From positions 31,541-95,540 of the IMG/VR virus record IMGVR_UViG_2923098224_000002: DNA of 64,000 nucleotides; one strand, 5' to 3'. The first letter of the stretch is position 1. Each line of letters begins with the position of its first letter. The notes under the pieces are model-generated. The model saw nothing but the letters and a program-made list of their open reading frames with translations. It was not told the origin of the DNA and made no database searches. Positions 7,141 to 50,564 of this stretch are shown here, in pieces. The position numbers were made by a program, and so were the translations under genes. Origin of the DNA: a virus (lineage: Duplodnaviria; Caudoviricetes).

Positions 7141-7157
7141 TATACGGGCAAATCACG

Positions 7158-11411: not shown

Positions 11412-11427
11412 GAAAGGAGGCGATAAA

Positions 11428-33070: not shown

Positions 33071-33856
33071 ATGCATTACTTAGCGGAGCATCAAACGTTT
33101 GATTCGACGGCTGACCTAAACTCGGCAGTCTACGAACACATTAAGCGCAATACATACGACCTGAACGACACCGACCGCCAAGCGCTGAAGAAGATCGCCC
33201 GGTACGCGGTTAAGTTCAGCGGGGCGGCGCACCTGAAGGCGGAAACGCTGGCGGAACTCATTGGCAAGTCCGTCAAGACTGCACGCCGGGCCCTAAATAA
33301 ATTGGCGACGCTTGGCATCGTTAAGAAAATCGCAACAACAAGGAAGATAAACGGAGGGAAGGGCGCGAATATAATCGTGATCCTGCCGGTAGATGACCAG
33401 TCGACAATGTCCAATCGCGTACAAGCCGAAAAGCCAACGGAGACAACGACCGAGGCCCCGAAAACGGAAAACGAACCATCGGATTCTATTAAGCGTTCTA
33501 AAAACCAAAATAACGTATTAGATACGGCGACTGTGCCGGCTGAAGCGTTAAAAGGCGCATTGCCTGACGAAATATTTACCGCGATGTCTCGCTACTTTGG
33601 CGCAGAGGATATTTATAAATACTACGGGATTTTACTTCGCGCTAAAGCAAGCGTAGACAGAACGATCAGGCTCGAAGAACATGCGGCGCCTTTCGTTGAA
33701 GCGTGGCATGCAACGATTATGAAAGCGAAATCGCACGAAATTAGACGTTTTGACGATTACCTATACGCAGGGTTCAGGAAGGCGGCTTGGACGGTTAAGG
33801 CGCGCTTAAATCGTGGAGGATCACTTATGGACCGTTTCAGGCAGGCGTTTGAATAA
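33071..33856 (+). CDS. Winged-HTH (HTH_36-like) protein, possible replication initiator
   Basis: KAETLAELIGKSVKTARRAL...GGKGAN. Confidence 0.65.
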   Translation: MHYLAEHQTFDSTADLNSAVYEHIKRNTYDLNDTDRQALKKIARYAVKFSGAAHLKAETLAELIGKSVKTARRALNKLATLGIVKKIATTRKINGGKGANIIVILPVDDQSTMSNRVQAEKPTETTTEAPKTENEPSDSIKRSKNQNNVLDTATVPAEALKGALPDEIFTAMSRYFGAEDIYKYYGILLRAKASVDRTIRLEEHAAPFVEAWHATIMKAKSHEIRRFDDYLYAGFRKAAWTVKARLNRGGSLMDRFRQAFE

Positions 33857-34007: not shown

Positions 34008-34056
34008 TACCTTGACAGGGTAGAGGTCGCTGGTTCGAGCCCAGTCGGAATCATCA
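34008..34056 (+). other. att core: 3' half of tRNA-Val(GAC), shared attR(1)/attL(2)
   Basis: TACCTTGACAGGGTAGAGGTCGCTGGTTCGAGCCCAGTCGGAATCA; 5' half of the tRNA is absent. Confidence 0.88.
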
Positions 34057-34121: not shown

Positions 34122-35252
34122 TTAATGTGATTCCTCTTTTTGTTTGCCTTGTAAGATGCCACTGATAAATGTGGAAGCATCCTTCTGCATGTTTGGCATT
34201 AAATGTGAATAGGTGTTAAGTGTAACCTGGATATCTTTATGTCCTAACCTTTCTTGAACAACTTTAGGATGAAACTTTGTTAACAGTAAGGATGCATGAG
34301 AGTGTCTAAGGTTATGGAATGGGATATCAGGTAAATCAAGCTGCTTTAAATAAGCTTTGAACTGTCTTAAAAGGTTTCTTGGATTGATTGCATTCCCTGT
34401 ATCTGTACATACAACTAAATCTCGGTCTGTATAGAGCCCTCCGCATAAGTTCTTCTCTTTCAGTACACGGCTTCGTTGTTTCTTCAGTATATGGATATCA
34501 TGTTCTGATAAGTCGATGGTGCGTGTGCTTGTCGATGATTTTCCACCGTATTTTGTTTGGCCGCCAGAGTGTTCTAATGTTTGAACAATTCTCAAAACAC
34601 CATTATTGAAGTCTATATCCTTAAAACGTAAACCTAAAATTTCACCTTGTCTAAGCCCGAAAGAAATCGCTAACCAAAATGCGATATAGTAACGACTGTT
34701 TTTAGTGTGATCCAGGAATAAAGACATCTGTTCCGCTGACCAAACTTCAACTTCTTTACGCTTAACTGATGGCTTCCTAACTTTTTCAACTGGGTTCTTT
34801 TTAATAAACTCATCTTGGACAGCTGTTTTCATTACATTGTTGAGTACGTGATATATCTTCTTTATTGTGGCAGCTGATAAGCCGGCATTAACTAACCTTG
34901 TTATAAATGCTTGTACCTTTTGAGTTGTTATATCGCTTAGTTTCATGCTTCCAAAGGCGGGGAGTATATGATTTTTCAAATTATAATGATAAACCTTTAG
35001 AGTTTGGTTGCTTACATCTGGAGTTTTGATGTTAAGCCAATACTCAACCAATTCCTTGAAGGTTGAATCATTATCTTTAAGAAGATCCCCAGAGTGATAT
35101 AACTGGAGATCTTCTCTTAATGCTTCTTCTGCATCTTTCTTTAACTTGAACCCACTTCGTTTACGCTGCTTCCGTCTGCCGTTCTCGTCTTTCCCTATAT
35201 CAAACACATAGTACCAATTGCCGTTTCTCTTATCTTTTTTTACTGATGCCAT
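34122..35252 (-). CDS. int: Tyrosine integrase with arm-binding domain
   Basis: GKDENGRRKQ...GF..K, GLRQGEIL, HNLRHSHA, LGH...TLNTY. Confidence 0.95.
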   Translation of the reverse strand: MASVKKDKRNGNWYYVFDIGKDENGRRKQRKRSGFKLKKDAEEALREDLQLYHSGDLLKDNDSTFKELVEYWLNIKTPDVSNQTLKVYHYNLKNHILPAFGSMKLSDITTQKVQAFITRLVNAGLSAATIKKIYHVLNNVMKTAVQDEFIKKNPVEKVRKPSVKRKEVEVWSAEQMSLFLDHTKNSRYYIAFWLAISFGLRQGEILGLRFKDIDFNNGVLRIVQTLEHSGGQTKYGGKSSTSTRTIDLSEHDIHILKKQRSRVLKEKNLCGGLYTDRDLVVCTDTGNAINPRNLLRQFKAYLKQLDLPDIPFHNLRHSHASLLLTKFHPKVVQERLGHKDIQVTLNTYSHLMPNMQKDASTFISGILQGKQKEESH

Positions 35253-35273: not shown

Positions 35274-35936
35274 TTACCAGCTAGGGCGCTCTCCCCACCC
35301 GGTATTGCTTTTTTCGTAACCTTCTTTTAATGCACTGATAACATGTTCCTTAGCGTCTTTATTGAACTTTGTTATATCTTTACGGAATAAAGAAACTAGA
35401 AATCGGAAGTTATCAGGGGAATCTCCCATTGATAACATCAGCTTATGAAGATTTTCGATGACTGTGCCGAATTCACTAGGATTTATCGTATAGTACCAAT
35501 CAAGGTCGTTTTTAATCTCATTTATTTTTTTATTTATCATTTCATCATAGCTTGCATGTTGCTCTTGGATTCGTATAGCTTCAGCTTGTTCAAGTAAGTG
35601 TTTTTGGTACTCAGGATCATTCATTAACTCAATTTCCCGTTCGATCCAGGCTTCTTCTGCTGCCTTTTCAGCTGCTATTTTTTCAGGAGACTTAAAACCA
35701 AGAGCTTCTAAGTACATTTCTAAATTCTCTTCTGCGATTCCGAGCTTTCTAAATAGTTCTAATAATGTGTTGTAATCCGGATTCTTGTTGTGTCCATTTT
35801 CAATTTGACTAATGTACGCTCCGGACTTACCTAACGATTTTGATAGCTCTTGAGAATTGATCTTCTTTTTCTTCCTATAGTATTTGACCACTGATCCTAA
35901 CTTGTTTTCTTCATCAATCTTAATATTATTATCCAT
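35274..35936 (-). CDS. Xre-family repressor
   Basis: SQELSKSLGKSGAYISQIENG. Confidence 0.85.
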   Translation of the reverse strand: MDNNIKIDEENKLGSVVKYYRKKKKINSQELSKSLGKSGAYISQIENGHNKNPDYNTLLELFRKLGIAEENLEMYLEALGFKSPEKIAAEKAAEEAWIEREIELMNDPEYQKHLLEQAEAIRIQEQHASYDEMINKKINEIKNDLDWYYTINPSEFGTVIENLHKLMLSMGDSPDNFRFLVSLFRKDITKFNKDAKEHVISALKEGYEKSNTGWGERPSW

Positions 35937-36139
35937 GATTATAATGTCACCTCAAAAATAATCATAACATATGGTGAATAAAAAGAATATATTTATTATT
36001 TTCTTATGGATTACGATAAAACTTTAATAAAAATAAAAAAACTTTCATGAAAAGTATTGAAATATTAATGAGTGTGGTTTATGATTGGATTAACCCGAAA
36101 AGGAAAGGGTTAAACAGGAAACAGAAGAGAGGTGGACGG

Positions 36140-36364
36140 ATGAACCAAGAGGAACTAAACCAAGAGCAACTGGAAGAAATCTTCAAAAAGGTTGCGCTTG
36201 ATGTTCAAGATATTCGCAAAATTACTGGGGCTGGAAGAGATACAGCATATGCCCTTTGTAAGAGTGGGAAATTTCACGCAGTGCGGGTAGGGAAAAACAG
36301 AATCAAAGTACCAACAGAAGGTTTCAAAAAATGGTGGTACGGTGAGCAACAAATCGCTCAATAG
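36140..36364 (+). CDS. Excisionase-like HTH protein
   Basis: LDVQDIRKITGAGRDTAY...VRVG..IKVP; RBS GAGAGGTGG. Confidence 0.78.
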   Translation: MNQEELNQEQLEEIFKKVALDVQDIRKITGAGRDTAYALCKSGKFHAVRVGKNRIKVPTEGFKKWWYGEQQIAQ

Positions 36365-36553
36365 GACATAACAGCAACACCGCAATACATAATCGCAATA
36401 CATAACTTGTTCCATAAAACTGGAGGATGAACTATAATGAGATCATATGTTCTGTGTGAACTAAAAGAGATCCTATATTCAGATTCGGGTTAGTGGTGAC
36501 ATCGCCACTGTCTGTTGCTCTGAATTAGTGACACACTACAGGGGGTTATTCGG

Positions 36554-37516
36554 ATGATAGCAAAAGAGAGAGAAGCTAAGAAACCAGAAGTAGATGCAAA
36601 GGTACGTCTTGAAATGTCAGATATTAATGAACAGTATGAACAAACTGACGCATTAATTGATCAATTAATCAACAGTAGCTGTTCGATTGAACGTGAATGG
36701 GCAGCAATGTATCAGATCAAACGTAAGCAAGACAGAGGCGAAATAAACGCACATCAGGCGCTTAAAGCAATTGGGAAGCTTGATCCCAAGTCTCAAGAAA
36801 TGCGTGTATTCACTTACATAATTCCGTTGTATTACTACCTTAGAATGGCTGAATACTCAAATCTTGCAGAAATGTCGACAGTTGTTGATCTTGATTTTAT
36901 TGAAAACAATGAACAGATTAAAAGCTCCTTTTATAACCGTCTGATGGCTTTGTTGGGCGCTTCAGCATTCAGTCAGAATAAAATGACTCAAGCTCGTTTT
37001 TATTGCTCATACGGCATTAATGTAACGAATATTGATAGGCTTGTCGCTTATAGCTATCTAACTTTGGGTAACACTTATTTGCTTGATGATTATGAAAAAG
37101 CAAAAGAATATTACCTGGCCGGTTTAAAACATACTGAGAATAACCCCTTGGCAAAATTACAGCTAACTAGAAGCCTTTGTTTCTTGGAAAACCATTGGAA
37201 TCAAGAGAACTTTTGGCTAAACCCTGATTCAAATGAAGTTACAGATATCCAAGAAATTGCACATTATCACATCAAAAAAAACAACTTGCAACAGGCTAAA
37301 GAAATATTGGAGAACTTAGAGCAGCAACCGAATATTCATAATGACTTTGGCATTCATTTTTATCTAAAAGGACTAGCTTATGAAGATAAGAGATTCTTTT
37401 ATGAGTCTATAAAACACTTTAAGCTGTCCGGCGATCTATACAGCGTACGCTTACCTTTGGATAAATTAAGGGAAATGGGTGAGGACGAGCAGATTTTGGA
37501 TTTACTTGCCCTTTAA
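36554..37516 (+). CDS. aimR: AimR arbitrium receptor lacking the N-terminal HTH
   Basis: SDIN..TD.LI, SYLTLGN, LCFLENHW..EN.WLN, DIQEIAH, YLKG, SI.HFK.SGD...RLPL...MGE..QIL.LL match SPbeta/phi3T AimR TPR region; adjacent aimP. Confidence 0.9.
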   Translation: MIAKEREAKKPEVDAKVRLEMSDINEQYEQTDALIDQLINSSCSIEREWAAMYQIKRKQDRGEINAHQALKAIGKLDPKSQEMRVFTYIIPLYYYLRMAEYSNLAEMSTVVDLDFIENNEQIKSSFYNRLMALLGASAFSQNKMTQARFYCSYGINVTNIDRLVAYSYLTLGNTYLLDDYEKAKEYYLAGLKHTENNPLAKLQLTRSLCFLENHWNQENFWLNPDSNEVTDIQEIAHYHIKKNNLQQAKEILENLEQQPNIHNDFGIHFYLKGLAYEDKRFFYESIKHFKLSGDLYSVRLPLDKLREMGEDEQILDLLAL

Positions 37517-37552
37517 ATCGCGCGATATCACTTGAAAGGAGGTGAAAACTAT

Positions 37553-37687
37553 ATGAAAAAAGTATTTATCGGTCTTACTATCGTAGCTTCATTGGCTGTT
37601 GGTTTCGTTGCAGGTCAACAAACAACTATTCATAGCGCATCAGGGGAAGGAACATTCCATGTAGCAGGTTTTGGACGTGGTGCGTAA
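37553..37687 (+). CDS. aimP: AimP pro-peptide (44 aa), mature peptide GFGRGA
   Basis: AAAGGAGGTGA RBS; MKKVFIGLTIVASLAVGFVAGQQTTIHSASGEGTFHVAGFGRGA. Confidence 0.92.
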   Translation: MKKVFIGLTIVASLAVGFVAGQQTTIHSASGEGTFHVAGFGRGA

Positions 37688-37704
37688 GCATTACATATCC
37701 ATTT

Positions 37705-37733
37705 GAAGGGGTGAGCGATTCGTTCACTCCTTC
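37705..37733 (+). terminator. Hairpin after aimP
   Basis: GAAGGGGTGA-gcgattcgt-TCACTCCTTC. Confidence 0.55.
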
Positions 37734-37787
37734 TCATTACATATTTTTAGGATAAAAATAAAATAAGTGAATAAAAGGAGAAATGTT

Positions 37788-38705
37788 ATGACAAACGAAT
37801 TATCAACAGAGTTCAAATATGATTTAGTCGATCAATCAACAGCTGAATTTCTGAAACAGAAAGAATTCAACATGCGTGAGATTGTAGGCAAGGCTTATAC
37901 CGAGCTAGGAAGAGAGCTGAAGGAAGCGCAAGAAATGCTCGCTATGAATGGGTACGGGTGTTTTGAGGAATGGTGTATGTCTATAGGAATTAATAGAAAG
38001 GCAGTTAATAGGTTAATACAACGATATGAATTGATTGTGACAAATTGTCACAATCAAGAATTAATAGAAGACCTACCTGTTTCTCTAACATATGAAATAG
38101 CTAAACCTTCATCAGAATCAACAGAGTCAAAGAAACAAGCTAAGGAAGCAGTCCTAAAAGGTGAAGTCAAGACATTAAAGGAATACAAAGAGCTTGAAGC
38201 TAAGTTGAGGAAAGCTGAAGAGGATAATAAGAATCTTAGTTATGAATTAAGCCAAGAAAAGAAGAACAGGACAGTTGTTGAAAAAGTCATTGATAACACT
38301 GACTACAAACAAATAGACACATTAAAAAAAGAATTAGAGTACAAAAATAAAAAATATGAAAACTTATCAAAACAAAAAATGATCTTAGAGCAACAACTTG
38401 AAAGCAGTGATGTGAAAGTAAAAGAATACGAGGAGCTAACAAACAAATTAAAGGCCGTAACAAGAGAACAGGATGATCTAGGGAGACAAGTTGAGGCCAC
38501 TTCAGAGCTTTCTGAAATGGTTTGGGAGATTGAAAAACTACTAAAAGGTAGTTTAGCGCCTGTAAAGTATGCAAAGGCCATTAGGAATATGAGTGACAAT
38601 CAAATTATAATGAACAATCTTGATTCTGTAATCGGGCATGTGGAATCCTGGTGCAAAGAAATGAGAAAAATTACGAATAAAAATAATATTATTGAGGTGG
38701 TTTAA
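37788..38705 (+). CDS. DUF3102-like protein
   Basis: ELGRELKEAQE...GCFEEWC motif; coiled-coil C-terminus. Confidence 0.7.
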   Translation: MTNELSTEFKYDLVDQSTAEFLKQKEFNMREIVGKAYTELGRELKEAQEMLAMNGYGCFEEWCMSIGINRKAVNRLIQRYELIVTNCHNQELIEDLPVSLTYEIAKPSSESTESKKQAKEAVLKGEVKTLKEYKELEAKLRKAEEDNKNLSYELSQEKKNRTVVEKVIDNTDYKQIDTLKKELEYKNKKYENLSKQKMILEQQLESSDVKVKEYEELTNKLKAVTREQDDLGRQVEATSELSEMVWEIEKLLKGSLAPVKYAKAIRNMSDNQIIMNNLDSVIGHVESWCKEMRKITNKNNIIEVV

Positions 38706-38889
38706 TGTGACGGAAGATATTTTTGATCTACAGGATGAGCTTAAAGAGGCTGAAATAAATTTAAAAGCTGTTGAAGAAAAACTAGTAGACCATGACATTC
38801 TAGTTCTGAGACGTGAGGAATTAAAGGAACAAATCACCGAAGTAAAACGGTTGATCTCTAATCATCCTGACAATAAAGGGGAGAGATGA
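38692..38889 (+). CDS. Small coiled-coil protein
   Basis: Operon context. Confidence 0.55.
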   Translation: MRWFNVTEDIFDLQDELKEAEINLKAVEEKLVDHDILVLRREELKEQITEVKRLISNHPDNKGER

Positions 38890-39431
38890 GCGCTCTGATG
38901 AATTCGCATAAGAAACACCTTGAAGAAAAACAATGTTCCCTCAAGGTTTTGCAAAAACAAATTGATGAGGTATATGAATTAGAGCCAAGAAATGCACTCG
39001 AACTCGAACGAAAAAAGGTTGTATTGAAACGAGAAATTGAAGACTTAAAACAATTGATTAAAGGTGAAAACAGAACTGTATTAGACATTGTTATCAGTGG
39101 AATGCTTGATGGACAATACTACGAACATATGAAAAAAGTTTCTGGCTATACTGTGGATTACATAATTGATGACTGTATAGTCATGGAATATGTAGAAGAA
39201 ACAATTACAAATGACTACTGGTAAAGAGTTAAGGCTATTAAGAATGAACTATGGAACAATATCCTAGAAGAGTCGCCATACTTGGAGAGTAGAGAAATTG
39301 ATGAGCATGTATTTTATATTCCAGTGAGAAAGGGATATGAGGGTGAAGGGATAAGAAAATTTATTAGTGTTTTTCAAAATCTAATTGGCAATGAGATTAC
39401 TCTAATATTCAAAAAGGAGAGTAATAGATGA
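38886..39431 (+). pseudogene. Hypothetical gene with in-frame TAA at 39222-39224
   Basis: Same frame stays open for 68 more codons to a TGA overlapping the next ATG. Confidence 0.6.
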
Positions 39432-39940
39432 CAGCAAGAAGAAGTGTGCGTATCGACTTAGCAGCATCAGCAAACGGATTTAAACGGATCAGAGAAGATA
39501 AGTCGCTTTATTATAACCAAAAACATAATGCAATACTTAGCACGAATGGTCACATAGCAGAGGTTATTAGTCCTCAACCATATGATTCAGTGGTTATTGG
39601 GCTGCCTTACATATTGCGTGATGGTGTTTGCAAGAAAGTTACATACAGAAAATCAACGGAAAATTTAAAAAATGACATAAGAATAATGCTTGAGAACCTG
39701 GATAAATTCTCATCTAACGGTTTTCATCAAATGACTGTTACAGAACGATTTGATACCGGTTTAATCAAGCTATCTTCTTCATATTGTCCGGAAGCTTACG
39801 CTGATATATCGAAGTTTAACGGTAGGAATGTGGAGAGTGGGGAGCAACTGTGGTGCAAACTTGAAACAAATGAAAACAGAGCGCCGATTGTTACAGCTAT
39901 TGAAAACAGTAAGCCGTCAGAATACTTGAATTTAATTTAA
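39428..39940 (+). CDS. Hypothetical protein
   Basis: AAAGGAG RBS; 170 aa. Confidence 0.65.
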   Translation: MTARRSVRIDLAASANGFKRIREDKSLYYNQKHNAILSTNGHIAEVISPQPYDSVVIGLPYILRDGVCKKVTYRKSTENLKNDIRIMLENLDKFSSNGFHQMTVTERFDTGLIKLSSSYCPEAYADISKFNGRNVESGEQLWCKLETNENRAPIVTAIENSKPSEYLNLI

Positions 39941-39949
39941 AAGGAGAGA

Positions 39950-41005
39950 ATGCTTATAAAAATTGAGGTTTTAACATCAGGAAAAACGTTCAAGAATTAT
40001 AAAGTGCTTTGCAGAGAACTTGGGCTAGAAGTAAAACGTTCAGGGGATAGTCGAAAAGCGCAGTTTAAAGAACTAGAACGGTACTGTACATATAGCAAAG
40101 TTGGTCATTCCATAATTATAGAGGAAGTCTTTGAGCAGCCTCTTCAAAAAATGAAACGGCAGGGGAATAACACTGTTTATAGTGAACTGTTACAGCTCCT
40201 TATATTGGATATGCTTGCCCAAAGCAAGAATGGAAACATGTCTATAAGTAAAGGACGATTAATAAAATCAGTGAGCTTGGTTAATCAAAATTATAAGTAT
40301 TGCTTTGAAAAAAGAAAGTCTCTAGCTAGATATGCAAACACGGATACAGAAATTGTGAAAGATTTTTACGATAGTAGCAATAATAGCTTCAAGAAAGCGG
40401 TTGTACAAGCCCTAAACAAGTTAGTTGAGAAAAGGCTAATCATGTATGACGTTATTACTAAGGTTTGTGAAAAGGGGAAATTCAGACCACGTAAAGCGTC
40501 CTCGGCCGAGAAGAAAATGATTATGGCATGCGAGAAAAAAGTGCTTGATGAGCTTGGTTATAAAGAATTAAGTCATGTGCGTGTATCAAGGCACTGGAAT
40601 GAATTTAAACGGAGATCGGAGACTCTATTAAAAGAATGTAGCAATCTCAAATATTACTTTGCTGCTTATGACATCACCGCAAATGATAAATACATTGAAA
40701 ATGAGTGTGAGGAGCTCATTGGTTTTCTGTTGAAAGAAATTGAGCGGGTTGACTATAAGGAGAAACTGAATCATACAGCTTGTTCAAAGTTATTGAAAAA
40801 TGCGGAAGGTAGACACAAAAAGTCGTATTCAATATTTAGAGAAAACAATTATAGAATCAGTGAAAATTACATTCGTGACTTCAAAAAGCTAATTGACCTC
40901 CTTATAAATGAGGACGCTGAGAGTATAAGCGATGAAATTGAACAGATGGAAGCCCAAGATGATCTATCCTATGATATAGCGCAGTCTTTGCCAAGTGGTC
41001 TATAA
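39950..41005 (+). CDS. Hypothetical DNA-binding protein, possible replication protein
   Basis: FKNYKVLC..LG..VK.SGDSRKAQ.KEL N-terminus; followed by origin-like hairpins. Confidence 0.55.
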   Translation: MLIKIEVLTSGKTFKNYKVLCRELGLEVKRSGDSRKAQFKELERYCTYSKVGHSIIIEEVFEQPLQKMKRQGNNTVYSELLQLLILDMLAQSKNGNMSISKGRLIKSVSLVNQNYKYCFEKRKSLARYANTDTEIVKDFYDSSNNSFKKAVVQALNKLVEKRLIMYDVITKVCEKGKFRPRKASSAEKKMIMACEKKVLDELGYKELSHVRVSRHWNEFKRRSETLLKECSNLKYYFAAYDITANDKYIENECEELIGFLLKEIERVDYKEKLNHTACSKLLKNAEGRHKKSYSIFRENNYRISENYIRDFKKLIDLLINEDAESISDEIEQMEAQDDLSYDIAQSLPSGL

Positions 41006-41321
41006 AAAGTAACGGTTTAAACTTCCTATAGTATAAACAAGAAACACAATAGGAACATTAAACCGTCAAATTTTTGAGTTTAAGTATTACATAGAAAAAA
41101 GAGTGTGAAACACCAGTCTGAAGGGGGTTTGGGGGATGGTTGGCTGTAAGGTTAATAATTTGGAGCGTAGCGAGGGATTATTAACCTAAAGCATCCCCCA
41201 AGTGTTCTTTGATCATTTGAAATTAAGAAGAGCCTAGATGTACAAAGTAAACTTTGTCCATCTTCTCATCATGATTAACAAGTTAATCATTCTTCGGAAT
41301 AAACAATTGGAGGATTACTTA

Positions 41322-44225
41322 TTGAAAAATGAAAATTTAACTAAATCAGTGTTCGTGTACTCTTTAGATTCATCTGCTTTTTATAATGATAAAGAAGAAA
41401 AATTAAATCAAGATTTGCTTCAACTTCGCCTTTATAAAAAGTTTTTGCAGAAGTTGGCTAAAAAAGTGGCAAAAATGAATGATTCAAATGTATCCGATAT
41501 TCATTTAAATCTAACTGGTAAGCTCTTTGAGGAAGAAAGAAGCTTTAAGGAATTGGAACAATCGCTAATTACATATATCAAGAAAAAAGGTGAAAGTGAG
41601 TCCAGGCTTTCGAATGATATTGATGAGCTAATGGCCTGCAAATACAACAAAGCGAAAATCAACCGTCTTAAAAAAATTACTAACTGTTGGATTAACGAAA
41701 AGAAAGATGAATTAATTGAAGAGCAACAAAGTTTCAAAGGGACAAGAACCCTTAGAGGTGATTCGCTTAAAACAAAAGATGGAGAAGTTAGATCACAAAG
41801 GGTTATTTCTTTATTTGATTCAGTGCTAATTAGAACACTTGGATTGGACTACGATCAGATCACTGAGGAGATTATGATAGTTGAATCCTTTTACCATAAC
41901 GTTTTTAGAAGCTTGGTTCAGAATGGTTATTATTTTAATAATGAAAAATACGTTTACTATGCTTCATCAGCAGGACAAATTAGACAAAAGAAGGGTGTAT
42001 TCATCAAAGAAAAGACGTATCTGAAGAAGAAAAACACTCTGATGTGTGGGCTTAGTGAAGAGGTAATTAATTCTAAGGGCGGCATGAGCATTAACAAATG
42101 GATCGCTTACCTTGCCTTATCAAATAGCGCCAGTACATTATGGGAAGGGTTTAATATTGATGAGTGTATAGTTGTAAATGATTTTGAGACGGATGTGTCC
42201 ACTGAGGTTGATTACATAAACGATGAAACATACGAAATTAAAAGAGAGTACAAGTCTATTCCAATAAATCATACGGATGGCTGTGGAATGATTCTCCCTG
42301 AGCTTTCGGAGAGTGCATTCATGTTTAGAGCCCCTTTTATGAAAGGAATGTTAGTCCCATTTCCATTTGATGAGTATTCTAAATTATGCCGGAAGACCAA
42401 AATTAAAGATATATACGGCAAGGAATGGGATATTGTTAAAGACGGTATTAAAATTATCCTAACGAAGAGTCAGTTTAAGCTCTGGAAACATTATGATTCA
42501 TGGGATGATTACAAATCCAAATTTAAGAAGTATGAGTGTCAGGCAGCCAAGCTGAATGAAGAAGAGGATGAATTTAAAAACAGTGAACTTAATTATCAAA
42601 TGATCCAGACACTAACCGACACGACAGATGAAGAATTAGATAAGCTTTCAGAAAACACAGTGAAGAGGATCCAAACGCTTTACAAAGATAAAGAATCAAT
42701 GCTTGAGGTTATTGGAGCCGTTGAAAGCAATGCCCATAAAAATAACTTTCAGAAAGCTCATTTGATTTATCCTGAGTTGCTTAATGATAACCATTCAAAG
42801 GAGATTATTAAGAAGAATAAAAAGCGTTTGGTGAAGGAAGCAAAAGCAGGAAAAATTCTGCTAGAAGGCTCTCATTATACTTTTATTATTCCAGATTTGT
42901 ATGCTGCTTGCGGTTATTGGTTTTGCGGTGATTCTGATCCAAAGGTTTTGCTAAATGACGGAGAGGTTAGTTGTAAGCTTTTTAATAATCAGCAAAAATT
43001 AGATGTGTTGAGGCCTCCTCATCTATCTAGGGAGCATGGCATTAGGATCAACAAGTTAAATGATGATCTTAAAGACTGGTTCATTACGAAAGGCGTGTAT
43101 ACGTCCACTAAAGATGCCTTGTCAAGACTTCTGCAGTTTGATGTGGACGGAGATAAAGCACTTTTAGTTAGCGACAGCACTTTTGTTGAGATAGCAGAAA
43201 GAAATATGAAAAATGATGATATCGTTCCTCTTTATTATGAAATGAAGACAGCAGAAAACCAAGAAATCAATAACGAGAACATCTATAAAAGCTTGGAACT
43301 GGCTTTCGAGGTAAATATTGGTGAATATAGCAATAACATAACCAAGGTGTGGAATAGTGATAAGGTTGATTTAGACGTGATCAAATGGCTTACAATGGAA
43401 AATAACTTTGAGATTGATTATGCCAAGACCTTATACAAACCAACCCGTCCTGAACATGTTAGTCAAAGAATTAATGGTTTCCTGAAAGGGACTTATAACA
43501 GGAAAGTTCCTCACTTCTTTATTTACGCAAAAGACAAGAAAAGAAAGAACGTCAGATCAAGAAATGATTCTGTAGTTAATCGGTTGGGTGAAAAAATACC
43601 GAATAACAGGGTGAACTTTAAGAGGCTGGCGGGAGAATTTGATTACACAAAACTGAAGAATGAGAATGCTACTCTTGGGCTTGATCAAGAGGTATTGACA
43701 CGATTTAATGAACTCTACAAGTTGTATTCGAAGCAGCAACAGGAATTAGGTACAAAGGGAATTCTCCTGCAAATAAAAGATGAATTACTCAAAGATTATA
43801 GCAAAAAAAAGGTTGAAGATACAATGATTGTGACAGTCTATACAATGCTTGATCGTAATAAGCACTGGAAGGCCAAACAACAGAAAAAACAAAATGTTTC
43901 TCGTCAAGAAGCAGAATGGCATGTAACAAAAGAGATCAGAGAAACCTTGCTGAGTATTAGAGACAGCAGTTACATAACAGATATATTGGTGGAGTATCTA
44001 TTCAATACTAAATGCTCTAAGCATAAGGATACACTATACAATTGTTTTGGGTATAACATTGTAAGGAATTTGAAAAAGAACATTCGCAGAGCTATTAAAT
44101 GTGTTGATTGTGAGCGGGAAATCGAAAAGGGAACTAGGTGTGATAAGTGTCAAAAGGATAGGGAAAGAGAGTTAAATAAGCTGAGAAAACGAAAAGAACG
44201 TAAAAATAAAAAATGTCACGCTTAA
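41322..44225 (+). CDS. yonO: YonO-type single-subunit DNA-dependent RNA polymerase (RdRP-like fold)
   Basis: SAGQIRQKK, TDGCGMI, FRAPFMKG, R.PHL..EH, catalytic QFDVDGD, IDYAKT; C-terminal CVDC...CDKC; TTG start after GGAGG. Confidence 0.88.
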   Translation: MKNENLTKSVFVYSLDSSAFYNDKEEKLNQDLLQLRLYKKFLQKLAKKVAKMNDSNVSDIHLNLTGKLFEEERSFKELEQSLITYIKKKGESESRLSNDIDELMACKYNKAKINRLKKITNCWINEKKDELIEEQQSFKGTRTLRGDSLKTKDGEVRSQRVISLFDSVLIRTLGLDYDQITEEIMIVESFYHNVFRSLVQNGYYFNNEKYVYYASSAGQIRQKKGVFIKEKTYLKKKNTLMCGLSEEVINSKGGMSINKWIAYLALSNSASTLWEGFNIDECIVVNDFETDVSTEVDYINDETYEIKREYKSIPINHTDGCGMILPELSESAFMFRAPFMKGMLVPFPFDEYSKLCRKTKIKDIYGKEWDIVKDGIKIILTKSQFKLWKHYDSWDDYKSKFKKYECQAAKLNEEEDEFKNSELNYQMIQTLTDTTDEELDKLSENTVKRIQTLYKDKESMLEVIGAVESNAHKNNFQKAHLIYPELLNDNHSKEIIKKNKKRLVKEAKAGKILLEGSHYTFIIPDLYAACGYWFCGDSDPKVLLNDGEVSCKLFNNQQKLDVLRPPHLSREHGIRINKLNDDLKDWFITKGVYTSTKDALSRLLQFDVDGDKALLVSDSTFVEIAERNMKNDDIVPLYYEMKTAENQEINNENIYKSLELAFEVNIGEYSNNITKVWNSDKVDLDVIKWLTMENNFEIDYAKTLYKPTRPEHVSQRINGFLKGTYNRKVPHFFIYAKDKKRKNVRSRNDSVVNRLGEKIPNNRVNFKRLAGEFDYTKLKNENATLGLDQEVLTRFNELYKLYSKQQQELGTKGILLQIKDELLKDYSKKKVEDTMIVTVYTMLDRNKHWKAKQQKKQNVSRQEAEWHVTKEIRETLLSIRDSSYITDILVEYLFNTKCSKHKDTLYNCFGYNIVRNLKKNIRRAIKCVDCEREIEKGTRCDKCQKDRERELNKLRKRKERKNKKCHA

Positions 44226-44552
44226 ATTACAAGAAAATAAATGAAGATGGATAAGCCCTTGATATACAAGGGTTTTTCCAGTTGTATAGTGATATCTATA
44301 ATCTTCTTCTAGGGAAGAAAAAAGAAGTATTGATTTATGGATAATTATTTATACGGTTCCGTTATTATAATTTATCACAAAAATCCATACTATGCAATTT
44401 CGACCCAAACATTGTTTAATTCAACTTTGGACATCTATAGTCTTTTGGTTATTCCTCCTAAATAATCAAAGAATGCTGATCACTATGATCAGCCCCCCTT
44501 ATTTTAGATAATTATTTCAAATAAAAATTTATTGATGGAAGGAGGACTATAA

Positions 44553-44771
44553 GTGGAAATTGATAGACATAAGCTATGGCTAGATATTCGCAAAAGAAGG
44601 TTAACTCAAACGGAAATTGCGAAAGAATGCGGTTGTGCTCAGTCAAAAATCAGCTCCTTTTTGAATTATGATTCAGATATGTCACCTGAGCTTATTCAAA
44701 GAATGAAAGACTTTGTCTACTCTAAGCCTGAGTATGAAAACGGAAAGCGTAGAGTAATCAAAGTGATCTAA
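44553..44771 (+). CDS. Cro-like HTH protein
   Basis: LTQTEIAKECGCAQSKIS. Confidence 0.75.
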   Translation: MEIDRHKLWLDIRKRRLTQTEIAKECGCAQSKISSFLNYDSDMSPELIQRMKDFVYSKPEYENGKRRVIKVI

Positions 44772-44988
44772 TTCTTTGTCGTTACTACATTAAACAGCAT
44801 TGCGGAAACAATGTTGAAGAGATGTACAAGCCGACTCCAGCGACGTTAAATAAATGGTTTCGGGGTTTCATTAGTTTTACTCCTTTGATTTTATTTTTAT
44901 TCTTATTCCGAGCCATTTTGGTTCGGGGTTTCTCCTTTTGACATGACTATGTGCGGGGCATCCTCAGTGCCCCCGTAATCGTGTTTAA

Positions 44989-45195
44989 ATGAGAAAAAAC
45001 AATTGGAGGAATAATAAAATGAAAGAAAATAAGGTTACTGATACGAAAATCCTCAAGTCAGGATATTACTGTAAGAAATGCGATTTGTTTTTTGAGAATA
45101 CATGGGATATGGAATGCTACTGTCAAGGCGAAGGATGGTATAGAGCTAGTAAAGCGATTTTGATGTTAGAGAAGGTGCTCGGTAATGGAAAATAA
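44989..45195 (+). CDS. Small Cys-rich protein
   Basis: CKKC...CYC; probable start at ATG 45019. Confidence 0.5.
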   Translation: MRKNNWRNNKMKENKVTDTKILKSGYYCKKCDLFFENTWDMECYCQGEGWYRASKAILMLEKVLGNGK

Positions 45196-45358
45196 AAAAG
45201 AACAACCAAGATGGGGCGAGCCAAATGAGAAGTTTCAAGAGTTGGTTAAAAATATTGATCCAGAAGTATTAAGAAAAGCGAATGAAAAAATAAAAGAGAT
45301 GGCCAATGGTAAGCCTCTTTATAGATTTTAATTAAACATTTAGGAAGGAGGTGATGAT

Positions 45359-45835
45359 ATGAGCAAATTAGCAAATGACTTAATAGGCATTTTCAAGCTC
45401 GTTTCAAGAGACAGTGAGTTAATGAATCTTGCTTATTATAAAGAGTTGAGTAATCCAGCTAATATAGATGTGCAGCAAAGAGATGATTTTGATGACATCC
45501 TCAAAGGAATTATTGTTAGAGCTCCTAAATCTAACGATTTAAAAGAAGATGATCCTCAATGTCGGATCTGCATGTACTTTGGTAACGGCTATACTACACA
45601 CAATAAGCGTATTACTTCCCAGGATGTAATGATTGACGTATACACCCATATTGATCATTTTGAAGACAATGATCCTAGAAGTCTCAAGATCATAGACCGG
45701 CTAATTGATATTGTTTACGATAAAAATGTTGCTGGTGTGGGTAAGGTTGCTAATATCAATAGAATGTTGATAGCTAATCCCCCTGATGGATACCTCGGCT
45801 ATAAACTCATCTTTTCCTTTGGAGCTCCACAATAA
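45359..45835 (+). CDS. SPbeta YomW-like virion protein (possible tail terminator)
   Basis: Size, order and recalled similarity. Confidence 0.6.
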   Translation: MSKLANDLIGIFKLVSRDSELMNLAYYKELSNPANIDVQQRDDFDDILKGIIVRAPKSNDLKEDDPQCRICMYFGNGYTTHNKRITSQDVMIDVYTHIDHFEDNDPRSLKIIDRLIDIVYDKNVAGVGKVANINRMLIANPPDGYLGYKLIFSFGAPQ

Positions 45836-46548
45836 TGGAATATTCAAAGGACTTCTTTATTTTAGGTACTCCTATTTCAACAGATATAGGAGAGTGCCAC
45901 TTCATTAGACTTAAAGATTATCCTCAGTTCGTAAATGATCTCTCTCAAATGGTTAAATCAAAATCTGAAATAATAGCTGAATTTCAAGAAAACAATAAAT
46001 TTGGTCAATTGGATAGCTTGATCAATGATTTTAACGCTTCAACTTTGTTGGACATAGTTAATGTGATGGATCAGTTAAGAGCCTCTTACCAAAGAGTGTT
46101 TGCGAAGGTGTTTAATAACCCTGATGCATTCCAAGCTGTAGACGAGAAGAACTTTTACGATATCCGCAAGTTAATTCTTGATATGCATTGTTTAAAAGAA
46201 AAAAAGGTTAGCAAAAACTCTGAACTTGAAAAATTCAACAAGAAAAGTAGAGCGTTGAAACAGTCTGAGAACAATTATGATTTCTCCGATATTGTTAGTT
46301 GTGTTGTTCAATTTACTGGGTATTCATCCGCTGAAGTTCTTGAATTAACGCTTCCCCAACTTCACTCTCATTTTTTCAGAGGCGCTGCTTTTTTAAATAG
46401 CTCTGCTGCGATTGTACTCTCTACTGTAAGTCCGGAAGCTGCCAAAAACATTGGTTCTTGGAGTCAACATATAGATTTATTTGAAGAAGAGAAAAATTAC
46501 ATAACTAAGAAAGAAGCAAGAAACTTAGAGAAATTATTCTCAAATTAA
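45835..46548 (+). CDS. SPbeta YomV-like protein
   Basis: Size (237 aa) and synteny. Confidence 0.6.
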   Translation: MEYSKDFFILGTPISTDIGECHFIRLKDYPQFVNDLSQMVKSKSEIIAEFQENNKFGQLDSLINDFNASTLLDIVNVMDQLRASYQRVFAKVFNNPDAFQAVDEKNFYDIRKLILDMHCLKEKKVSKNSELEKFNKKSRALKQSENNYDFSDIVSCVVQFTGYSSAEVLELTLPQLHSHFFRGAAFLNSSAAIVLSTVSPEAAKNIGSWSQHIDLFEEEKNYITKKEARNLEKLFSN

Positions 46549-46571
46549 AAAACAAGGTGGAATTTTAATAA

Positions 46572-47357
46572 ATGAGTAAAAAGACAGTAATTCATGATGT
46601 ATGTAACGTTGTTATGAAAAGAAAATCTGACGGGAAAGTTATTGCAACTGCTGAAGCACAAACAACTAGCCTGTCTCAAAGTATCCAGGAAGACTATTTA
46701 AAAGGCGGATGGGGAAACCAAAACCTTTATCAAATTAAGTCCGACAAGAATATTACAGGAACAATCAAAAATGCTTTCTTCAGCTTGGATTGGTTGGCCA
46801 TGCAACAAGGAGTCAAGGTTGAAAATGGGACGGTGCAAGTATGGGAGGATGAGACGCTTACTGTTGAGACAGATGGAAAAGTAACTCTTAGCAAGACTCC
46901 AGTTGATGCAGTTTCTTTCGAGAATAGCGAAGGAGAGTCTTATCTTATGGAAACTGAATCCACAGAAGGTCAACTCCCTACAACTTTTGCAAAAGAGGGT
47001 GCGAAAGTTAAAGCACGATATAAAATTGATGCTGAAGGTGAAATTGTTGAAATTAAGGCTGATACATTCTCTGAAGCTTATGAGATGGAATATCACACTT
47101 TAGAGTACGATCCAGAAACTGAAACAATCCATAGTGATCTTTATATTCAGTTCGATAAAATCTCTCCTTCTGGTGAAGCAGAGCTAAACTTTGAAGCCGG
47201 CAACGCAATTACACCTGAAATCAAATTCACAGCGCTTGCAGTTGATAATTCTCTTGGGCGTTTCATTCGGGTTAAACGTAAAGCAGACGGATCAAAAGGT
47301 GAGAAACCTACTGAGTCTCCAAAGCAAAGCGTTGATCTTGGCGGCGCAAGTGCATAA
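46572..47357 (+). CDS. SPbeta YomU-like probable major tail tube protein
   Basis: LKGGWGN motif; size and synteny. Confidence 0.65.
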   Translation: MSKKTVIHDVCNVVMKRKSDGKVIATAEAQTTSLSQSIQEDYLKGGWGNQNLYQIKSDKNITGTIKNAFFSLDWLAMQQGVKVENGTVQVWEDETLTVETDGKVTLSKTPVDAVSFENSEGESYLMETESTEGQLPTTFAKEGAKVKARYKIDAEGEIVEIKADTFSEAYEMEYHTLEYDPETETIHSDLYIQFDKISPSGEAELNFEAGNAITPEIKFTALAVDNSLGRFIRVKRKADGSKGEKPTESPKQSVDLGGASA

Positions 47358-48688: not shown

Positions 48689-48885
48689 AAAATAACCATT
48701 CAATTTAATCAAAGTCGATTCGCGAACGACTATAAATGTATAAACAAGGACAGAAAACAACATGCAGGATATATTAGCACCCTCCTTCCATGCTAGAAAA
48801 AAGTGATAAATAAGGATAAAAATAAAATAAATAGATTGACGATAGTAAACGTAAGTGTTATAATTAAGTTAAGAAAGGAGGGGAA

Positions 48886-50000: not shown

Positions 50001-50564
50001 TCATTTAGAAGGGGCTTGTAACTTCTTCTTAGCTCTTATTAGAGTGCTTTTACTGATACCTGTAATATCCTCAACTTGTTTGTATGAATGATCGTTAAGT
50101 AACTCTAAGGCGTGTTGTATTTGCTTCTTCGAATACTTGTTAGGTCTACCCTCTCGGAAGTCTTCACGTTGCTTTGCAATGGCTTTTCCTTCCTGAGTAC
50201 GTTCGACAATCATATCTCTTTCAAACTCTGCAAACCCACTCATAATGGTTAATATTAGCCTTCCTGTTGGTGTGTCTTCAACTAAACCCATGTTTAATAC
50301 ATGAACCTTCACACCCTTTGAAAACAATTCCTTGACTGTATTAATTGCATCTACAGTTGATCTTGCAAAGCGGTCTAGCTTAGTAACAACCAAAGTATCT
50401 CCTTCTTCAAGCTTTGATAAAACCTCTTTGAATTTAGGGCGATCAGCTTTAGTACCTGTGAATTTTTCTGAATAGATCACATCGCATCCTTGGTTCTCTA
50501 ATGTGGCTATCTGTGATTCCAAATCCTGTGAAACTGTACTTACACGAGCATATCCATATTTCAT
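50001..50564 (-). CDS. Serine recombinase (resolvase/invertase)
   Basis: [21 protein letters not shown]-terminal HTH. Confidence 0.95.

What the first reader, a model, noticed from the sequence alone, without database searches (positions are those of the whole stretch)
36540..37733. AimR without a DNA-binding domain, paired with intact aimP and no evident aimX
Seen: a 320-aa protein with its own RBS (AGGGGG). By my recall of the SPbeta/phi3T sequences (about 380 aa), it aligns only from roughly residue 65-80 onward, and no HTH remnant is visible upstream. Motifs corresponding to the peptide pocket (LGN, QE, HND, SGD) and the C-terminal dimerisation helix are retained. aimP (GFGRGA) is intact and is followed by a hairpin and then a DUF3102-like gene. 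Established: AimR needs its HTH to activate aimX. Inference: a peptide sponge, a peptide-gated dominant-negative partner of a helper AimR, or a receptor signalling by protein contact (e.g. with the element repressor).
Basis: partly seen in the sequence, partly recalled or inferred. Interest (0 to 1): 0.8.

Follow-up and report, generated by a model that had tools for sequence, protein, structure and literature searches.

The report
Arbitrium receptor lacking its DNA-binding domain
A Bacillus prophage carries a conserved version of the phage "arbitrium" peptide receptor AimR that has lost its DNA-binding head but keeps its own signal peptide, so it must pass on the lysis-or-dormancy signal in some way not yet described for this system.

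Summary
ORF 36554-37516 (+) encodes a 320-aa protein that is the AimR regulatory (TPR) domain only. It matches solved AimRs from their residue 81 to the end, and no HTH remnant exists upstream or anywhere in the 95.5-kb record. An intact aimP (mature GFGRGA) follows. There is no aimX ORF and no SPbeta-type operator.

It is not a strain-specific deletion. All relatives at 57-98% identity lack the head, and the nearest full-length AimRs are at most 43% identical. The short forms make one clade (100/100) nested inside clade-2 AimR, with dN/dS 0.06-0.2. A sister prophage has a full-length AimR in exactly the same slot, behind the same leader and RBS. Residues 15-110 are the most conserved part within the clade and the part least like canonical AimR. 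The C-terminal part co-varies with the peptide.

The element is a complete siphovirus-like prophage, not a satellite. Nearly identical receptors sit beside unrelated repressors, and genomes with it lack a close full-length AimR.

Best reading (mechanism inferred): a Rap-like, peptide-gated regulator acting by protein contact, partner unknown. I found no description in the texts I could search; Erez 2017, Stokar-Avihail 2019 and all supplements were not readable.

The parts
34122..35252 (-). tyrosine integrase; left end of the low-GC prophage
   Evidence: Pfam Phage_integrase 1.4e-23 plus Arm and SAM-like domains. GC drops from about 0.47 to about 0.35 here.
35274..35936 (-). XRE-type repressor candidate, 220 aa (HTH at 17-68 plus a C-terminal helical part)
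   Evidence: Pfam HTH_3 1.5e-09. PHROG 3 transcriptional repressor 7.9e-07. Relatives at 35-37% identity lie next to full-length AimRs in L022 and L026.
36057..36085 (+). promoter-like site of the rightward early operon
   Evidence: TTGAAA-17-TATGAT, 10 of 12. The number of such sites in the scanned region (11) did not exceed the shuffles (mean 12.7). RNA-library contigs of two studies begin at 36102-36105; weak hint only.
36140..36364 (+). HTH_17 / excisionase-like small protein (74 aa from the ATG at 36140)
   Evidence: Pfam HTH_17 1.5e-07. PHROG 66 and TIGR01764 are weak. Present upstream of aimR' in 7 of 9 places compared (the window was the query source).
36437..36493 (+). conserved 18-aa upstream ORF (MRSYVLCELKEILYSDSG), stop codon overlapping the leader hairpin
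   Evidence: Has an RBS. Differs from the sister prophage by three changes, all synonymous. A 3-nt indel in L009 keeps the frame. L007/L011 have a new start and RBS that read into the same C-terminal YSDSG. Absent upstream of the 8 other full-length AimR genes examined.
36491..36510 (+). leader hairpin between the upstream ORF and aimR'
   Evidence: Stem AGTGGTG/CGCCACT. L007/L009/L011 have AGTGGC-TTTT-GCCACT at the same place. Fold z-score is not significant in the window (-0.9) and is -3.1 in L007.
36540..36545 (+). RBS AGGGGG of aimR'
   Evidence: Same leader and RBS precede the full-length aimR of the sister prophage L026, with the start codon at nearly the same distance.
36554..37516 (+). 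aimR' : HTH-less AimR, 320 aa (TPR regulatory domain only)
   Evidence: AF2 model pLDDT 90.8. Foldseek TM 0.80-0.92 to 15 listed AimR chains. Clade 100/100. dN/dS 0.06-0.2.
37553..37687 (+). aimP, 44-aa pre-pro-peptide, mature C-terminus GFGRGA
   Evidence: NCBIfam AimP_fam 3.5e-23. Found downstream of aimR' in 10 of 10 places where the downstream DNA is readable.
37705..37733 (+). hairpin after aimP (terminator-like, no adjacent U-tract), flanked by two exact copies of CATTACATAT (37689, 37735)
   Evidence: dG -22 kcal/mol, z -5.0. L010 has a hairpin of different sequence at the same place. Repeats; with one mismatch allowed the motif is not enriched in the window (8 matches, 9 of 100 shuffles reach that).
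37747..37764 (+). AT-rich promoter-associated motif TTAGGATAAAAATAAAAT
   Evidence: 3 copies in the window against 0.38 expected, reached by 0 of 100 shuffles. The copy at 48811 lies just upstream of a TTGACG-17-TATAAT promoter. Conserved downstream of aimP in most related loci including L010 and L026, and replaced in L007, L009 and L027.
37788..38705 (+). 305-aa protein of unknown function (PHROG 1733), next gene after aimP
   Evidence: PHROG 1733 3.7e-80. No Pfam DUF3102 hit at E<=0.1. A homologue also follows the divergent HTH-less pair in L039, but is absent from the other related loci.

Best explanation
aimR' (36554-37516) belongs to a conserved subfamily of clade-2 arbitrium receptors that lost the N-terminal HTH, roughly codons 2-66 of a full-length ancestor. 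The subfamily kept the nine-TPR peptide-binding body, the C-terminal dimerisation helix and a cognate aimP. It cannot bind DNA on its own. I infer that it works like a Rap protein. In the peptide-free open state its clade-specific, highly conserved N-terminal TPR subdomain (residues about 15-110) holds a protein partner. That partner is more likely a host factor, or a factor common to several phage backbones, than the local repressor. Imported GFGRGA would close the TPR superhelix and release or re-shape the partner, coupling phage density to the lysis-lysogeny decision of this siphovirus-like prophage. Shown here: domain loss, conservation, purifying selection, pairing with aimP, modular conservation pattern, same genomic slot as a full-length AimR. 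Inferred: peptide binding, dimerisation, existence and identity of a partner, direction of the effect.
For: Domain loss.

Not strain-specific: of 11 homologues at E<=1e-5, 8 are short (seven of 320 aa, one of 303 aa with an internal gap) at 57-98% identity, and 3 are full-length (386-388 aa) at 40-41%. The best full-length representative is 43% identical. Cluster members come from B. amyloliquefaciens, B. velezensis, B. subtilis and B. atrophaeus.

One clade: 10 short rows form one side of a 100/100 branch, nested among full-length clade-2 AimRs with two outgroups.

Selection: dN/dS 0.06-0.15 for 8 close pairs and 0.15-0.20 against L010.

Modularity: residues 15-110 are 72-90% identical in three cross-subclade pairs (56-60% overall) but only 26-35% identical to full-length AimRs. 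Residues 216-320 are 29-43% identical in those pairs. Full-length pairs of 47-53% overall identity vary less and show no such N-to-C gradient. Codons 15-110 have dN 0.10 and dS 0.88; codons 216-320 have dN 0.71. P0006 is a natural chimera of the two subclades.

Peptide side: aimP follows in 10 of 10 readable places. There are three peptide endings: GFGRGA, NPGRGA (L010) and ATIGRG (L039). The residues that in SPbeta hold the peptide's N-terminal half switch with the peptide (T230/Q233/E234 versus D230/Y233/G234). R162, N173, N263 and D/E294 stay.

Same slot as a real transcription factor: sister prophage L026 (81-89% nt identity over window 39429-47344) has a 398-aa AimR plus SASRGA aimP between the same flanks. 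Nucleotide homology stops at the aimR start and resumes right after its stop, and the leader and RBS are shared.

Fold: pLDDT 90.8, residues 1-12 disordered; TM 0.80-0.92 to 15 listed AimR chains.

Basis for gating: AimP induces a roughly 15-degree closure between the TPR subdomains (PMC9232636, passage).

Precedent: Rap is an RRNPPA receptor without an HTH that acts through protein-protein interaction (PMC9765709, passages).
Against: SPbeta N202 and N206 are Ala and Ser in 7 of the 8 aligned members (P0008 has Ser at both positions). N202A abolishes peptide binding in SPbeta AimR (PMC6458997), so peptide binding itself is not certain.

The lower dS of the N-terminal part (0.88 against 1.9 and saturated) and the chimera P0006 mean that part of the N-terminal conservation may reflect recombination rather than constraint alone.

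No phage gene other than aimP is a constant neighbour. This fits a host target but is also what one would see if there were no partner at all.
Confidence: 0.45

Rival explanations
1. Direct antirepressor. Apo-AimR' binds the prophage's own XRE repressor (35274-35936) or another regulator of the lysogeny module (the HTH_17 protein; the Rha/KilAC antirepressor present in some relatives), and AimP releases it.
For: aimR' lies in the early rightward operon next to the int-repressor module in 8 of 10 places. Most arbitrium systems end in a small antirepressor that binds the repressor (bioRxiv 10.1101/2025.11.23.689978; abstract, section 5 and passages read). Repressors of the 220-aa family also accompany full-length clade-2 AimRs. 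L007 and L011 carry a Rha+KilAC antirepressor directly upstream of aimR'.
Against: AimR' of the window and of L006 are 98.8% identical. Their repressors share only 15 of 40 HTH residues and nothing else. L010 and L039 have no repressor or HTH_17 gene next to the pair. The antirepressor is present in only 2 loci.
Confidence: 0.15
2. Dominant-negative or heterodimer partner. AimR' dimerises through the conserved C-terminal helix with a full-length AimR of a co-resident or incoming phage and poisons or re-tunes it.
For: The C-terminal helix is conserved (L315, L317, L318 invariant), and that helix drives AimR dimerisation (PMC6458997). The record does contain a second, canonical AimR-AimP in the neighbouring prophage.
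Against: That neighbour is an outgroup on a very long branch. The two species-representative genomes with the short form (G003 intact, G001 frameshifted) have no other clade-2 AimR at E<=1e-20. Identity to any full-length AimR is at most 43%. This reading does not explain why the N-terminal TPRs are the most constrained part.
Confidence: 0.1
3. Signal producer plus intracellular sink. The unit mainly exports GFGRGA to act on other phages or to mark lysogen density, and AimR' only buffers imported peptide, with no downstream output.
For: The pair is self-contained and moves between at least three backbones. Cross-talk between arbitrium systems exists (PMC13220667, abstract and section 8).
Against: GFGRGA did not reduce induction of SPbeta, phi3T, Goe11 or 13952 (PMC13220667 section 8). 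No full-length AimR paired with GFGRGA was seen: in IMG/VR, 5 of the 5 matches with a readable receptor are short, out of 7 pattern matches (one is cut at a contig end, one is a high-GC chance match). A passive sink would not need a conserved, clade-specific N-terminal subdomain.
Confidence: 0.1
4. Still a transcription factor. AimR' recruits a separate DNA-binding subunit in trans, or contacts RNA polymerase at the conserved promoter motif after aimP.
For: The hairpin and the AT-rich promoter motif after aimP are conserved in most loci, including the 60%-identical L010 and the full-length sister L026, but are replaced in L007, L009 and L027. The helix that pairs with the last HTH helix to form TPR1 in SPbeta AimR (PMC6458997) lacks its partner here.
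Against: No HTH-domain remnant or split gene exists in the record. The motif is a general promoter feature of the phage, with 3 copies. The region after aimP recombines independently of receptor type: L004 has a short receptor with the L026-type downstream region.
Confidence: 0.08
5. Decaying remnant of a full-length aimR with no function.
For: One relative (L004, B. inaquosorum) is frameshifted inside a degraded prophage.
Against: dN/dS is 0.06-0.2. The frame is intact at 320 aa in 9 of 9 nucleotide copies used. The N-terminal tail is conserved (M1, K4, R6, K10). The protein occurs in many genomes of several species.
Confidence: 0.02

Closest known systems
Canonical clade-2 AimR (SPbeta YopK, phi3T, Katmira, ATCC13952 phage; PDB 6hp3, 5zvv, 6s7i, 9f36)
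   Same: Homologous nine-TPR regulatory domain (35-38% identity; TM 0.80-0.92 to 15 listed chains). C-terminal dimerisation helix. Cognate aimP directly downstream with an xxxRGA peptide. Most polar peptide anchors kept. Phage-borne, in the B. subtilis group.
   Different: No HTH (SPbeta residues 1-59) and no first TPR helix. N202 and N206 equivalents replaced. No aimX and no operator after aimP. Located in a roughly 30-40 kb siphovirus-like prophage next to int and an XRE repressor, not in an SPbeta-like 125-135 kb phage.
Rap receptors of the RRNPPA family (RapI of ICEBs1; Rap of phages phi3T and phi105; PDB 4i1a, 8rst, 8rte)
   Same: Peptide-binding TPR receptor without a DNA-binding domain, paired with a secreted peptide gene, carried by mobile elements. 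HTH loss is a derived state (PMC9765709 and PMC12700828, passages). This is the proposed working analogy.
   Different: Not homologous beyond the TPR superfold (Foldseek TM 0.46-0.61, 11-13% identity). No N-terminal three-helix bundle. The loss happened independently, inside the AimR lineage. No target is known.
Extended arbitrium module AimR-AimP-AimX-AimC-AimL (bioRxiv 10.1101/2025.11.23.689978)
   Same: Arbitrium genes embedded next to a cI/cro-like switch of a temperate Bacillus phage. The output there is a protein-protein contact that inactivates the repressor.
   Different: There the receptor is a DNA-binding activator of a small antirepressor gene located after aimP, and aimC lies downstream on the opposite strand. 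Here there is no such ORF, and the repressor lies upstream, divergent from the early operon. That preprint lists a generic 'RP' architecture within clade 2 without explaining it.
'Eavesdropper' AimRs without aimP (PMC9765709)
   Same: A non-canonical arbitrium configuration in Bacillus chromosomes.
   Different: The opposite defect: those keep the HTH and lack the peptide gene. This one keeps the peptide gene and lacks the HTH.

Membership tests
AimR (arbitrium receptor; Pfam PF22871, NCBIfam NF038310) | Homologous TPR-like regulatory domain with the AimR fold | tested here: met
   PF22871 6e-71. NF038310 189 bits against a cut-off of 70. PDB AimRs E 1.7e-62. Foldseek TM 0.80-0.92, rmsd 1.4-3.0 A, for 15 listed AimR chains.
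AimR (arbitrium receptor; Pfam PF22871, NCBIfam NF038310) | [quoted passage not shown] | tested here: not met
   The alignment starts at chain residue 81. NCBIfam profile positions 1-66 are unmatched. No remnant upstream or in the whole record.
AimR (arbitrium receptor; Pfam PF22871, NCBIfam NF038310) | Cognate aimP immediately downstream, encoding a secreted pre-pro-peptide with a C-terminal hexapeptide | tested here: met
   AimP_fam 3.5e-23. Present in 10 of 10 readable places.
AimR (arbitrium receptor; Pfam PF22871, NCBIfam NF038310) | Conserved peptide-anchoring residues (SPbeta N202, N206, R228, T236, N239, Q299, E300, N329, D360) | tested here: inconclusive
   7 of 9 kept; N202 is Ala and N206 is Ser. 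N202A abolishes binding in SPbeta AimR (PMC6458997). Binding itself was not testable.
AimR (arbitrium receptor; Pfam PF22871, NCBIfam NF038310) | Dimerisation through the C-terminal helix | not testable with these tools
AimR (arbitrium receptor; Pfam PF22871, NCBIfam NF038310) | Operator and aimX output gene downstream of aimP | tested here: not met
   No + strand ORF of 25 aa or more in 37688-37787. The SPbeta-type inverted repeat is absent from the window and from all short-receptor loci, but hits the two SPbeta-type loci L019 and L020. Operators of other AimRs may differ.
Rap (RRNPPA receptors without HTH) | Sequence or fold membership: N-terminal three-helix bundle plus Rap-type TPRs | tested here: not met
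   No Rap family hit in Pfam or NCBIfam. Foldseek to Rap structures gives only TM 0.46-0.61 at 11-13% identity. The tree places the protein inside AimR.
Rap (RRNPPA receptors without HTH) | Peptide-inhibited binding of a target protein | not testable with these tools
   Proposed by analogy only. No partner identified.
Phage satellite / helper-dependent element | Lacks its own packaging and virion genes | tested here: not met
   Small terminase 49577, large terminase 50917, portal 52686, scaffold 54128, major head 54756 and tape measure 56514-62153 are all present.

The most novel reading that the evidence does not exclude
A whole branch of arbitrium systems, including the receptor of GFGRGA (one of the six most common arbitrium peptides), signals without any DNA binding. 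The receptor has become a peptide-gated protein-binding switch, an independent Rap-like transition inside AimR. Its conserved N-terminal TPR module acts on a host or pan-phage target, and its C-terminal module is swapped to change peptide specificity.
Probability: 0.4. Interest if true: 0.85.

Novelty: new variant of a known kind. Interest (0 to 1): 0.7.

Why it matters
Every mechanistic model of arbitrium starts from AimR as a transcription factor. Reviews of the RRNPPA family state that Rap is the only member without an HTH (PMC9765709).

A selected, widespread AimR branch without the HTH, sitting in the very slot where a sister phage has the full-length factor, shows that the signal can be read out another way. 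It also offers a natural pair of phages for comparing the two modes.

The peptide is already in use in laboratories (PMC13220667, key resources table), and the prophage occurs in common strains, including the B. amyloliquefaciens type strain by its database name. Partner and phenotype are therefore directly testable.

The modular pattern (a constant N-terminal part and an exchangeable peptide-specificity part) would also be useful for engineering peptide-gated switches.

Tried and rejected
I went on with the search for related loci and the genome search, as the tool message advised.

A predicted complex of AimR' with the 220-aa repressor was asked for once.

Earlier notes of this scan: nothing found by sequence.

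Rfam found no family in window 33000-64000 or in L007, L008, L009 and L011.

Split-gene idea: the upstream HTH_17 protein is excisionase/MerR-like rather than an AimR-type HTH. It is also present in the sister phage that has a full-length AimR, so it is not the missing head.

The two exact copies of CATTACATAT around the hairpin and their weak likeness to the early promoter region are not above chance once one mismatch is allowed: 8 matches, and 9 of 100 shuffles reach that. I make no claim from them.

The promoter scan gave no more sites than shuffles did: 11 against a mean of 12.7.

RNA data are contigs only. In two runs of one study, contig depth differs between int-repressor (27; 155), the HTH_17 gene plus leader (1035; 491) and aimR'-aimP onward (211; 165). 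Contigs of two studies begin at 36102-36105. The run X8 has one 38-kb contig of even depth and says nothing. These are hints of transcription and of a drop at the leader hairpin, not measurements.

Single versus multiple origin of short forms is unresolved. P0013 (320 aa, 38% identical) pairs with a full-length protein (support 91/95), but holding it with the main clade is not rejected (p-AU 0.39). P0087 (317 aa, Peribacillus) sits elsewhere; its upstream DNA was not checked, so a mis-called start is not excluded. Other short representatives (326-353 aa) begin inside the HTH region and look like mis-called starts or cut genes. I did not count them.

Literature. Searches, and passages of PMC6458997, PMC13220667, PMC9765709, PMC12700828, PMC9232636, PMC13748020, bioRxiv 10.1101/2025.11.23.689978 and 10.1101/2025.10.13.681967, gave no mention of an AimR without an HTH. 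Erez 2017 and Stokar-Avihail 2019 are not held, and supplements are closed. Table S1 of PMC13220667 (281 clade-2 AimRs) and Figure S5 of PMC6458997 probably contain these proteins and may note their length.
Full report
**What is there.** The window holds two prophages in tandem. Bases 1 to about 33,900 (GC about 0.47) carry a large terminase, portal, head, tape-measure, tail and endolysin genes. From the integrase at 34122-35252 (-) to the window's end, GC is about 0.35. This second element has its own small and large terminase, portal, scaffold, major head protein and a 1879-aa tape measure. It is therefore a complete siphovirus-like prophage, not a satellite.

Its left end reads as follows:
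- integrase (-)
- a 220-aa XRE-type repressor candidate, 35274-35936 (-)
- on the + strand, an HTH_17/excisionase-like gene (36140-36364)
- the gene in question (36554-37516)
- aimP (37553-37687)
- a strong hairpin (37705-37733)
- a 305-aa protein of PHROG 1733.

**The observation.** The 320-aa product is an AimR regulatory domain and nothing else.
- Pfam AimR scores 6e-71.
- NCBIfam lysogeny_AimR scores 189 bits but covers only profile positions 67-364 of 365. A full-length relative covers 1-365.
- phmmer aligns residues 15-320 to residues 81-386 of the 386-aa solved AimRs, without gaps in the three alignments printed.
- The SPbeta HTH is residues 1-59 (PMC6458997, passages).
- The AlphaFold2 model (19-sequence alignment, pLDDT 90.8, residues 1-12 disordered) superposes on 15 listed AimR chains with TM 0.80-0.92.
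- Upstream frames are closed.
- An HMM of the HTH region of 11 full-length clade-2 AimRs finds nothing in six frames of the whole 95.5-kb record (best E 0.88).

aimP is a bona fide AimP family member (E 3.5e-23) ending in GFGRGA. Two papers list this among the major arbitrium peptides (PMC6458997 and PMC13220667, passages). Nothing resembling aimX follows. The SPbeta-type operator pattern is absent from the window, although it hits the two SPbeta-type control loci.

The equivalents of SPbeta N202 and N206 are Ala and Ser. The 'DUF3102-like' label was not reproduced.

**Not a private deletion.** Of 11 homologues at E<=1e-5, eight are short (seven of 320 aa, one of 303 aa) and 57-98% identical. 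The three full-length ones are 40-41% identical. An exhaustive profile-free search of 1.84 billion representatives gives a best full-length hit of 43%. Cluster members carry names from B. amyloliquefaciens, B. velezensis, B. subtilis and B. atrophaeus. No sequenced phage isolate has the short form: 33 phage records match, all below 60% identity and all from query residue 13-17 onward.

In a maximum-likelihood tree of 23 rows, the 10 short proteins form one side of a 100/100 branch. They are nested among full-length clade-2 AimRs and lie next to a GFPRGA-type group (82/90). A 320-aa B. subtilis protein only 38% identical (P0013) has the same N-terminal design and its own peptide gene ending ATIGRG. 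Whether it shares the same loss event is unresolved (p-AU 0.39).

**Selection and modularity.** Pairwise dN/dS is 0.06-0.15 among close copies and 0.15-0.20 against the 60%-identical L010 copy.

Conservation is strongly uneven. Between the two subclades (three pairs of 56-60% overall identity), residues 15-110 are 72-90% identical and residues 216-320 only 29-43%. Against full-length AimRs the pattern is reversed: 26-35% for residues 15-110 and 36-53% for residues 216-320. Full-length pairs of 47-53% overall identity vary less and show no such N-to-C gradient. Codons 15-110 have dN 0.10 at dS 0.88, and codons 216-320 have dN 0.71. P0006 is a natural chimera: 94% like one subclade in residues 1-110 and 87% like the other in residues 216-320.

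So the family has a constant, clade-specific N-terminal module and an exchangeable C-terminal module. The residues that in SPbeta hold the N-terminal half of the peptide switch together with the peptide: T230/Q233/E234 with GFGRGA, and D230/Y233/G234 in the subclade whose sampled member L010 has NPGRGA. The anchors of the RGA half stay: R162, N173, N263 and D/E294.

**Origin and genomic slot.** A sister prophage (L026) is 81-89% identical in DNA to window 39429-47344. Between the same flanks it carries a 398-aa AimR with SASRGA aimP. Homology stops at window 36547, just before the aimR' start. It resumes at 37518, just after the stop, and runs through the signal-peptide half of aimP. The leader, an 18-aa upstream ORF, a hairpin and the AGGGGG RBS are shared, and the start codon sits at almost the same distance. 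The short form thus looks like a clean in-frame loss of about 65 codons behind an unchanged translation start.

The aimR'-aimP pair occurs in at least three backbones:
- integrase of 376 aa with the 220-aa repressor (window, L003, L007)
- integrase of 383 aa with an unrelated 182-192-aa repressor (L006, L008, L009, L011, L015)
- a different context with a large serine recombinase (L010).

L009 and L015 may be the same strain.

**What this says about mechanism.** A receptor without an HTH cannot activate a promoter the way AimR does.

The data argue against several simple alternatives.
- Decay is excluded by selection.
- A dominant-negative role needs a related full-length AimR. Yet the two species-representative genomes with the short form have none at E<=1e-20, and the neighbour prophage's AimR (408 aa, peptide ending DIRVGA) is a distant outgroup.
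- Binding the local repressor is hard to reconcile with 98.8%-identical receptors sitting next to repressors that share only part of the HTH.
- A passive sink, or a pure signal producer, does not explain the constrained N-terminal module. GFGRGA also had no effect on four SPbeta-family phages (PMC13220667 section 8).

What remains is a peptide-gated protein-binding regulator, the logic of Rap proteins. In that reading the N-terminal TPRs are the output surface, and the AimP-driven closure of the superhelix (PMC9232636, passage) is the switch. Because only aimP is a constant neighbour, the target is more likely a host protein, or something common to many phages.

This is inference. No binding could be computed or measured, and the loss of the N202 equivalent leaves even peptide binding to be shown.

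**Comparison with the known.** By homology the protein is an AimR, and databases name it so. It fails two defining features of the functional family: the HTH, and the operator/aimX output. It is not a Rap by sequence or fold but may work like one.

Texts I could read treat all AimRs as HTH proteins. They name Rap (and one 'subfamily 17') as the HTH-less lineages (PMC9765709, PMC12700828). A recent preprint notes an unexplained 'RP' architecture in clade 2.

I could not read Erez 2017, Stokar-Avihail 2019 or any supplement. The claim 'not described' rests only on searches and on the passages listed under Tried and rejected.

**Verdict.** This is a new variant of a known kind. Interest is 0.7. 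The decisive work is at the bench: peptide binding, knock-outs, and a partner pull-down.

Noticed in passing
window 36437-36493 (+); also L003, L006-L009, L011, L018/L026: An 18-aa ORF (MRSYVLCELKEILYSDSG) with its own RBS lies just upstream of aimR', and its stop overlaps the leader hairpin. Against the sister prophage it shows three changes, all synonymous. L009 keeps the frame through a 3-nt indel. L007 and L011 have a different start and RBS that read into the same YSDSG end. It could be a leader peptide of an attenuator or a small effector. It is not found upstream of the 8 other full-length AimR genes examined.
   Followed up: partly
G000:C1 about 10348-11650 (locus L002 1312-2608), outside the window: The neighbouring prophage carries a canonical arbitrium pair: a 408-aa AimR with HTH, an AimP ending DIRVGA, a divergent 81-aa HTH gene upstream and a sigma-like 202-aa gene downstream. 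One record therefore holds two very different arbitrium systems.
   Followed up: partly
window 1-33900 versus 34000-64000: Two complete-looking siphovirus-type prophages lie in tandem (GC 0.47 and 0.35). The second is integrated right after a 261-aa HTH/replication-like gene (33071-33856). The same junction is seen in L003, while RNA-library contigs of other strains diverge at 34008-34054.
   Followed up: partly
window 37747-37764, 44888-44905 (-), 48811-48828: AT-rich motif TTAGGATAAAAATAAAAT, 3 copies against 0.38 expected. One copy sits directly upstream of a consensus TTGACG-17-TATAAT promoter before the packaging genes. The same motif lies upstream of the aimR' promoter in L010 and L039, and of the phi3T-type aimR in L024. 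It looks like an UP-element or a regulator site.
   Followed up: partly
window 50001-50564 (-): A 187-aa serine recombinase / DNA invertase gene (PHROG 125, 2e-67) sits on the opposite strand between the small and large terminase genes.
   Followed up: no
L007 about 4600-7400, L008 about 4260-6770, L009, L011, L032: A conserved stretch of roughly 2-2.5 kb without long ORFs lies downstream of the aimR'-aimP pair in several related prophages. No Rfam family matches.
   Followed up: partly
L007 2295-3059, L011 2133-2897: A Rha + KilAC antirepressor gene (254 aa) is inserted between the HTH_17 gene and aimR' in two related prophages.
   Followed up: partly
L004 8001-8962 (B. inaquosorum KCTC 13429): A frameshifted aimR' with an intact GFGRGA aimP lies in a degraded prophage remnant without a nearby integrase.
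   Followed up: partly
window 56514-62153: The tape measure protein of 1879 aa carries lytic transglycosylase and metallo-endopeptidase domains. The next ORF (62392-63390) matches the end of the same PHROG family.
   Followed up: no
window 37769 / 39437: RNA-library contigs of three runs join 37769 to 39437 with 18 other letters between them. Those strains therefore lack the 1.67-kb block (305-aa gene to 49-aa ORF) that separates aimP from the 170-aa gene here, as in L004 and L026.
   Followed up: partly
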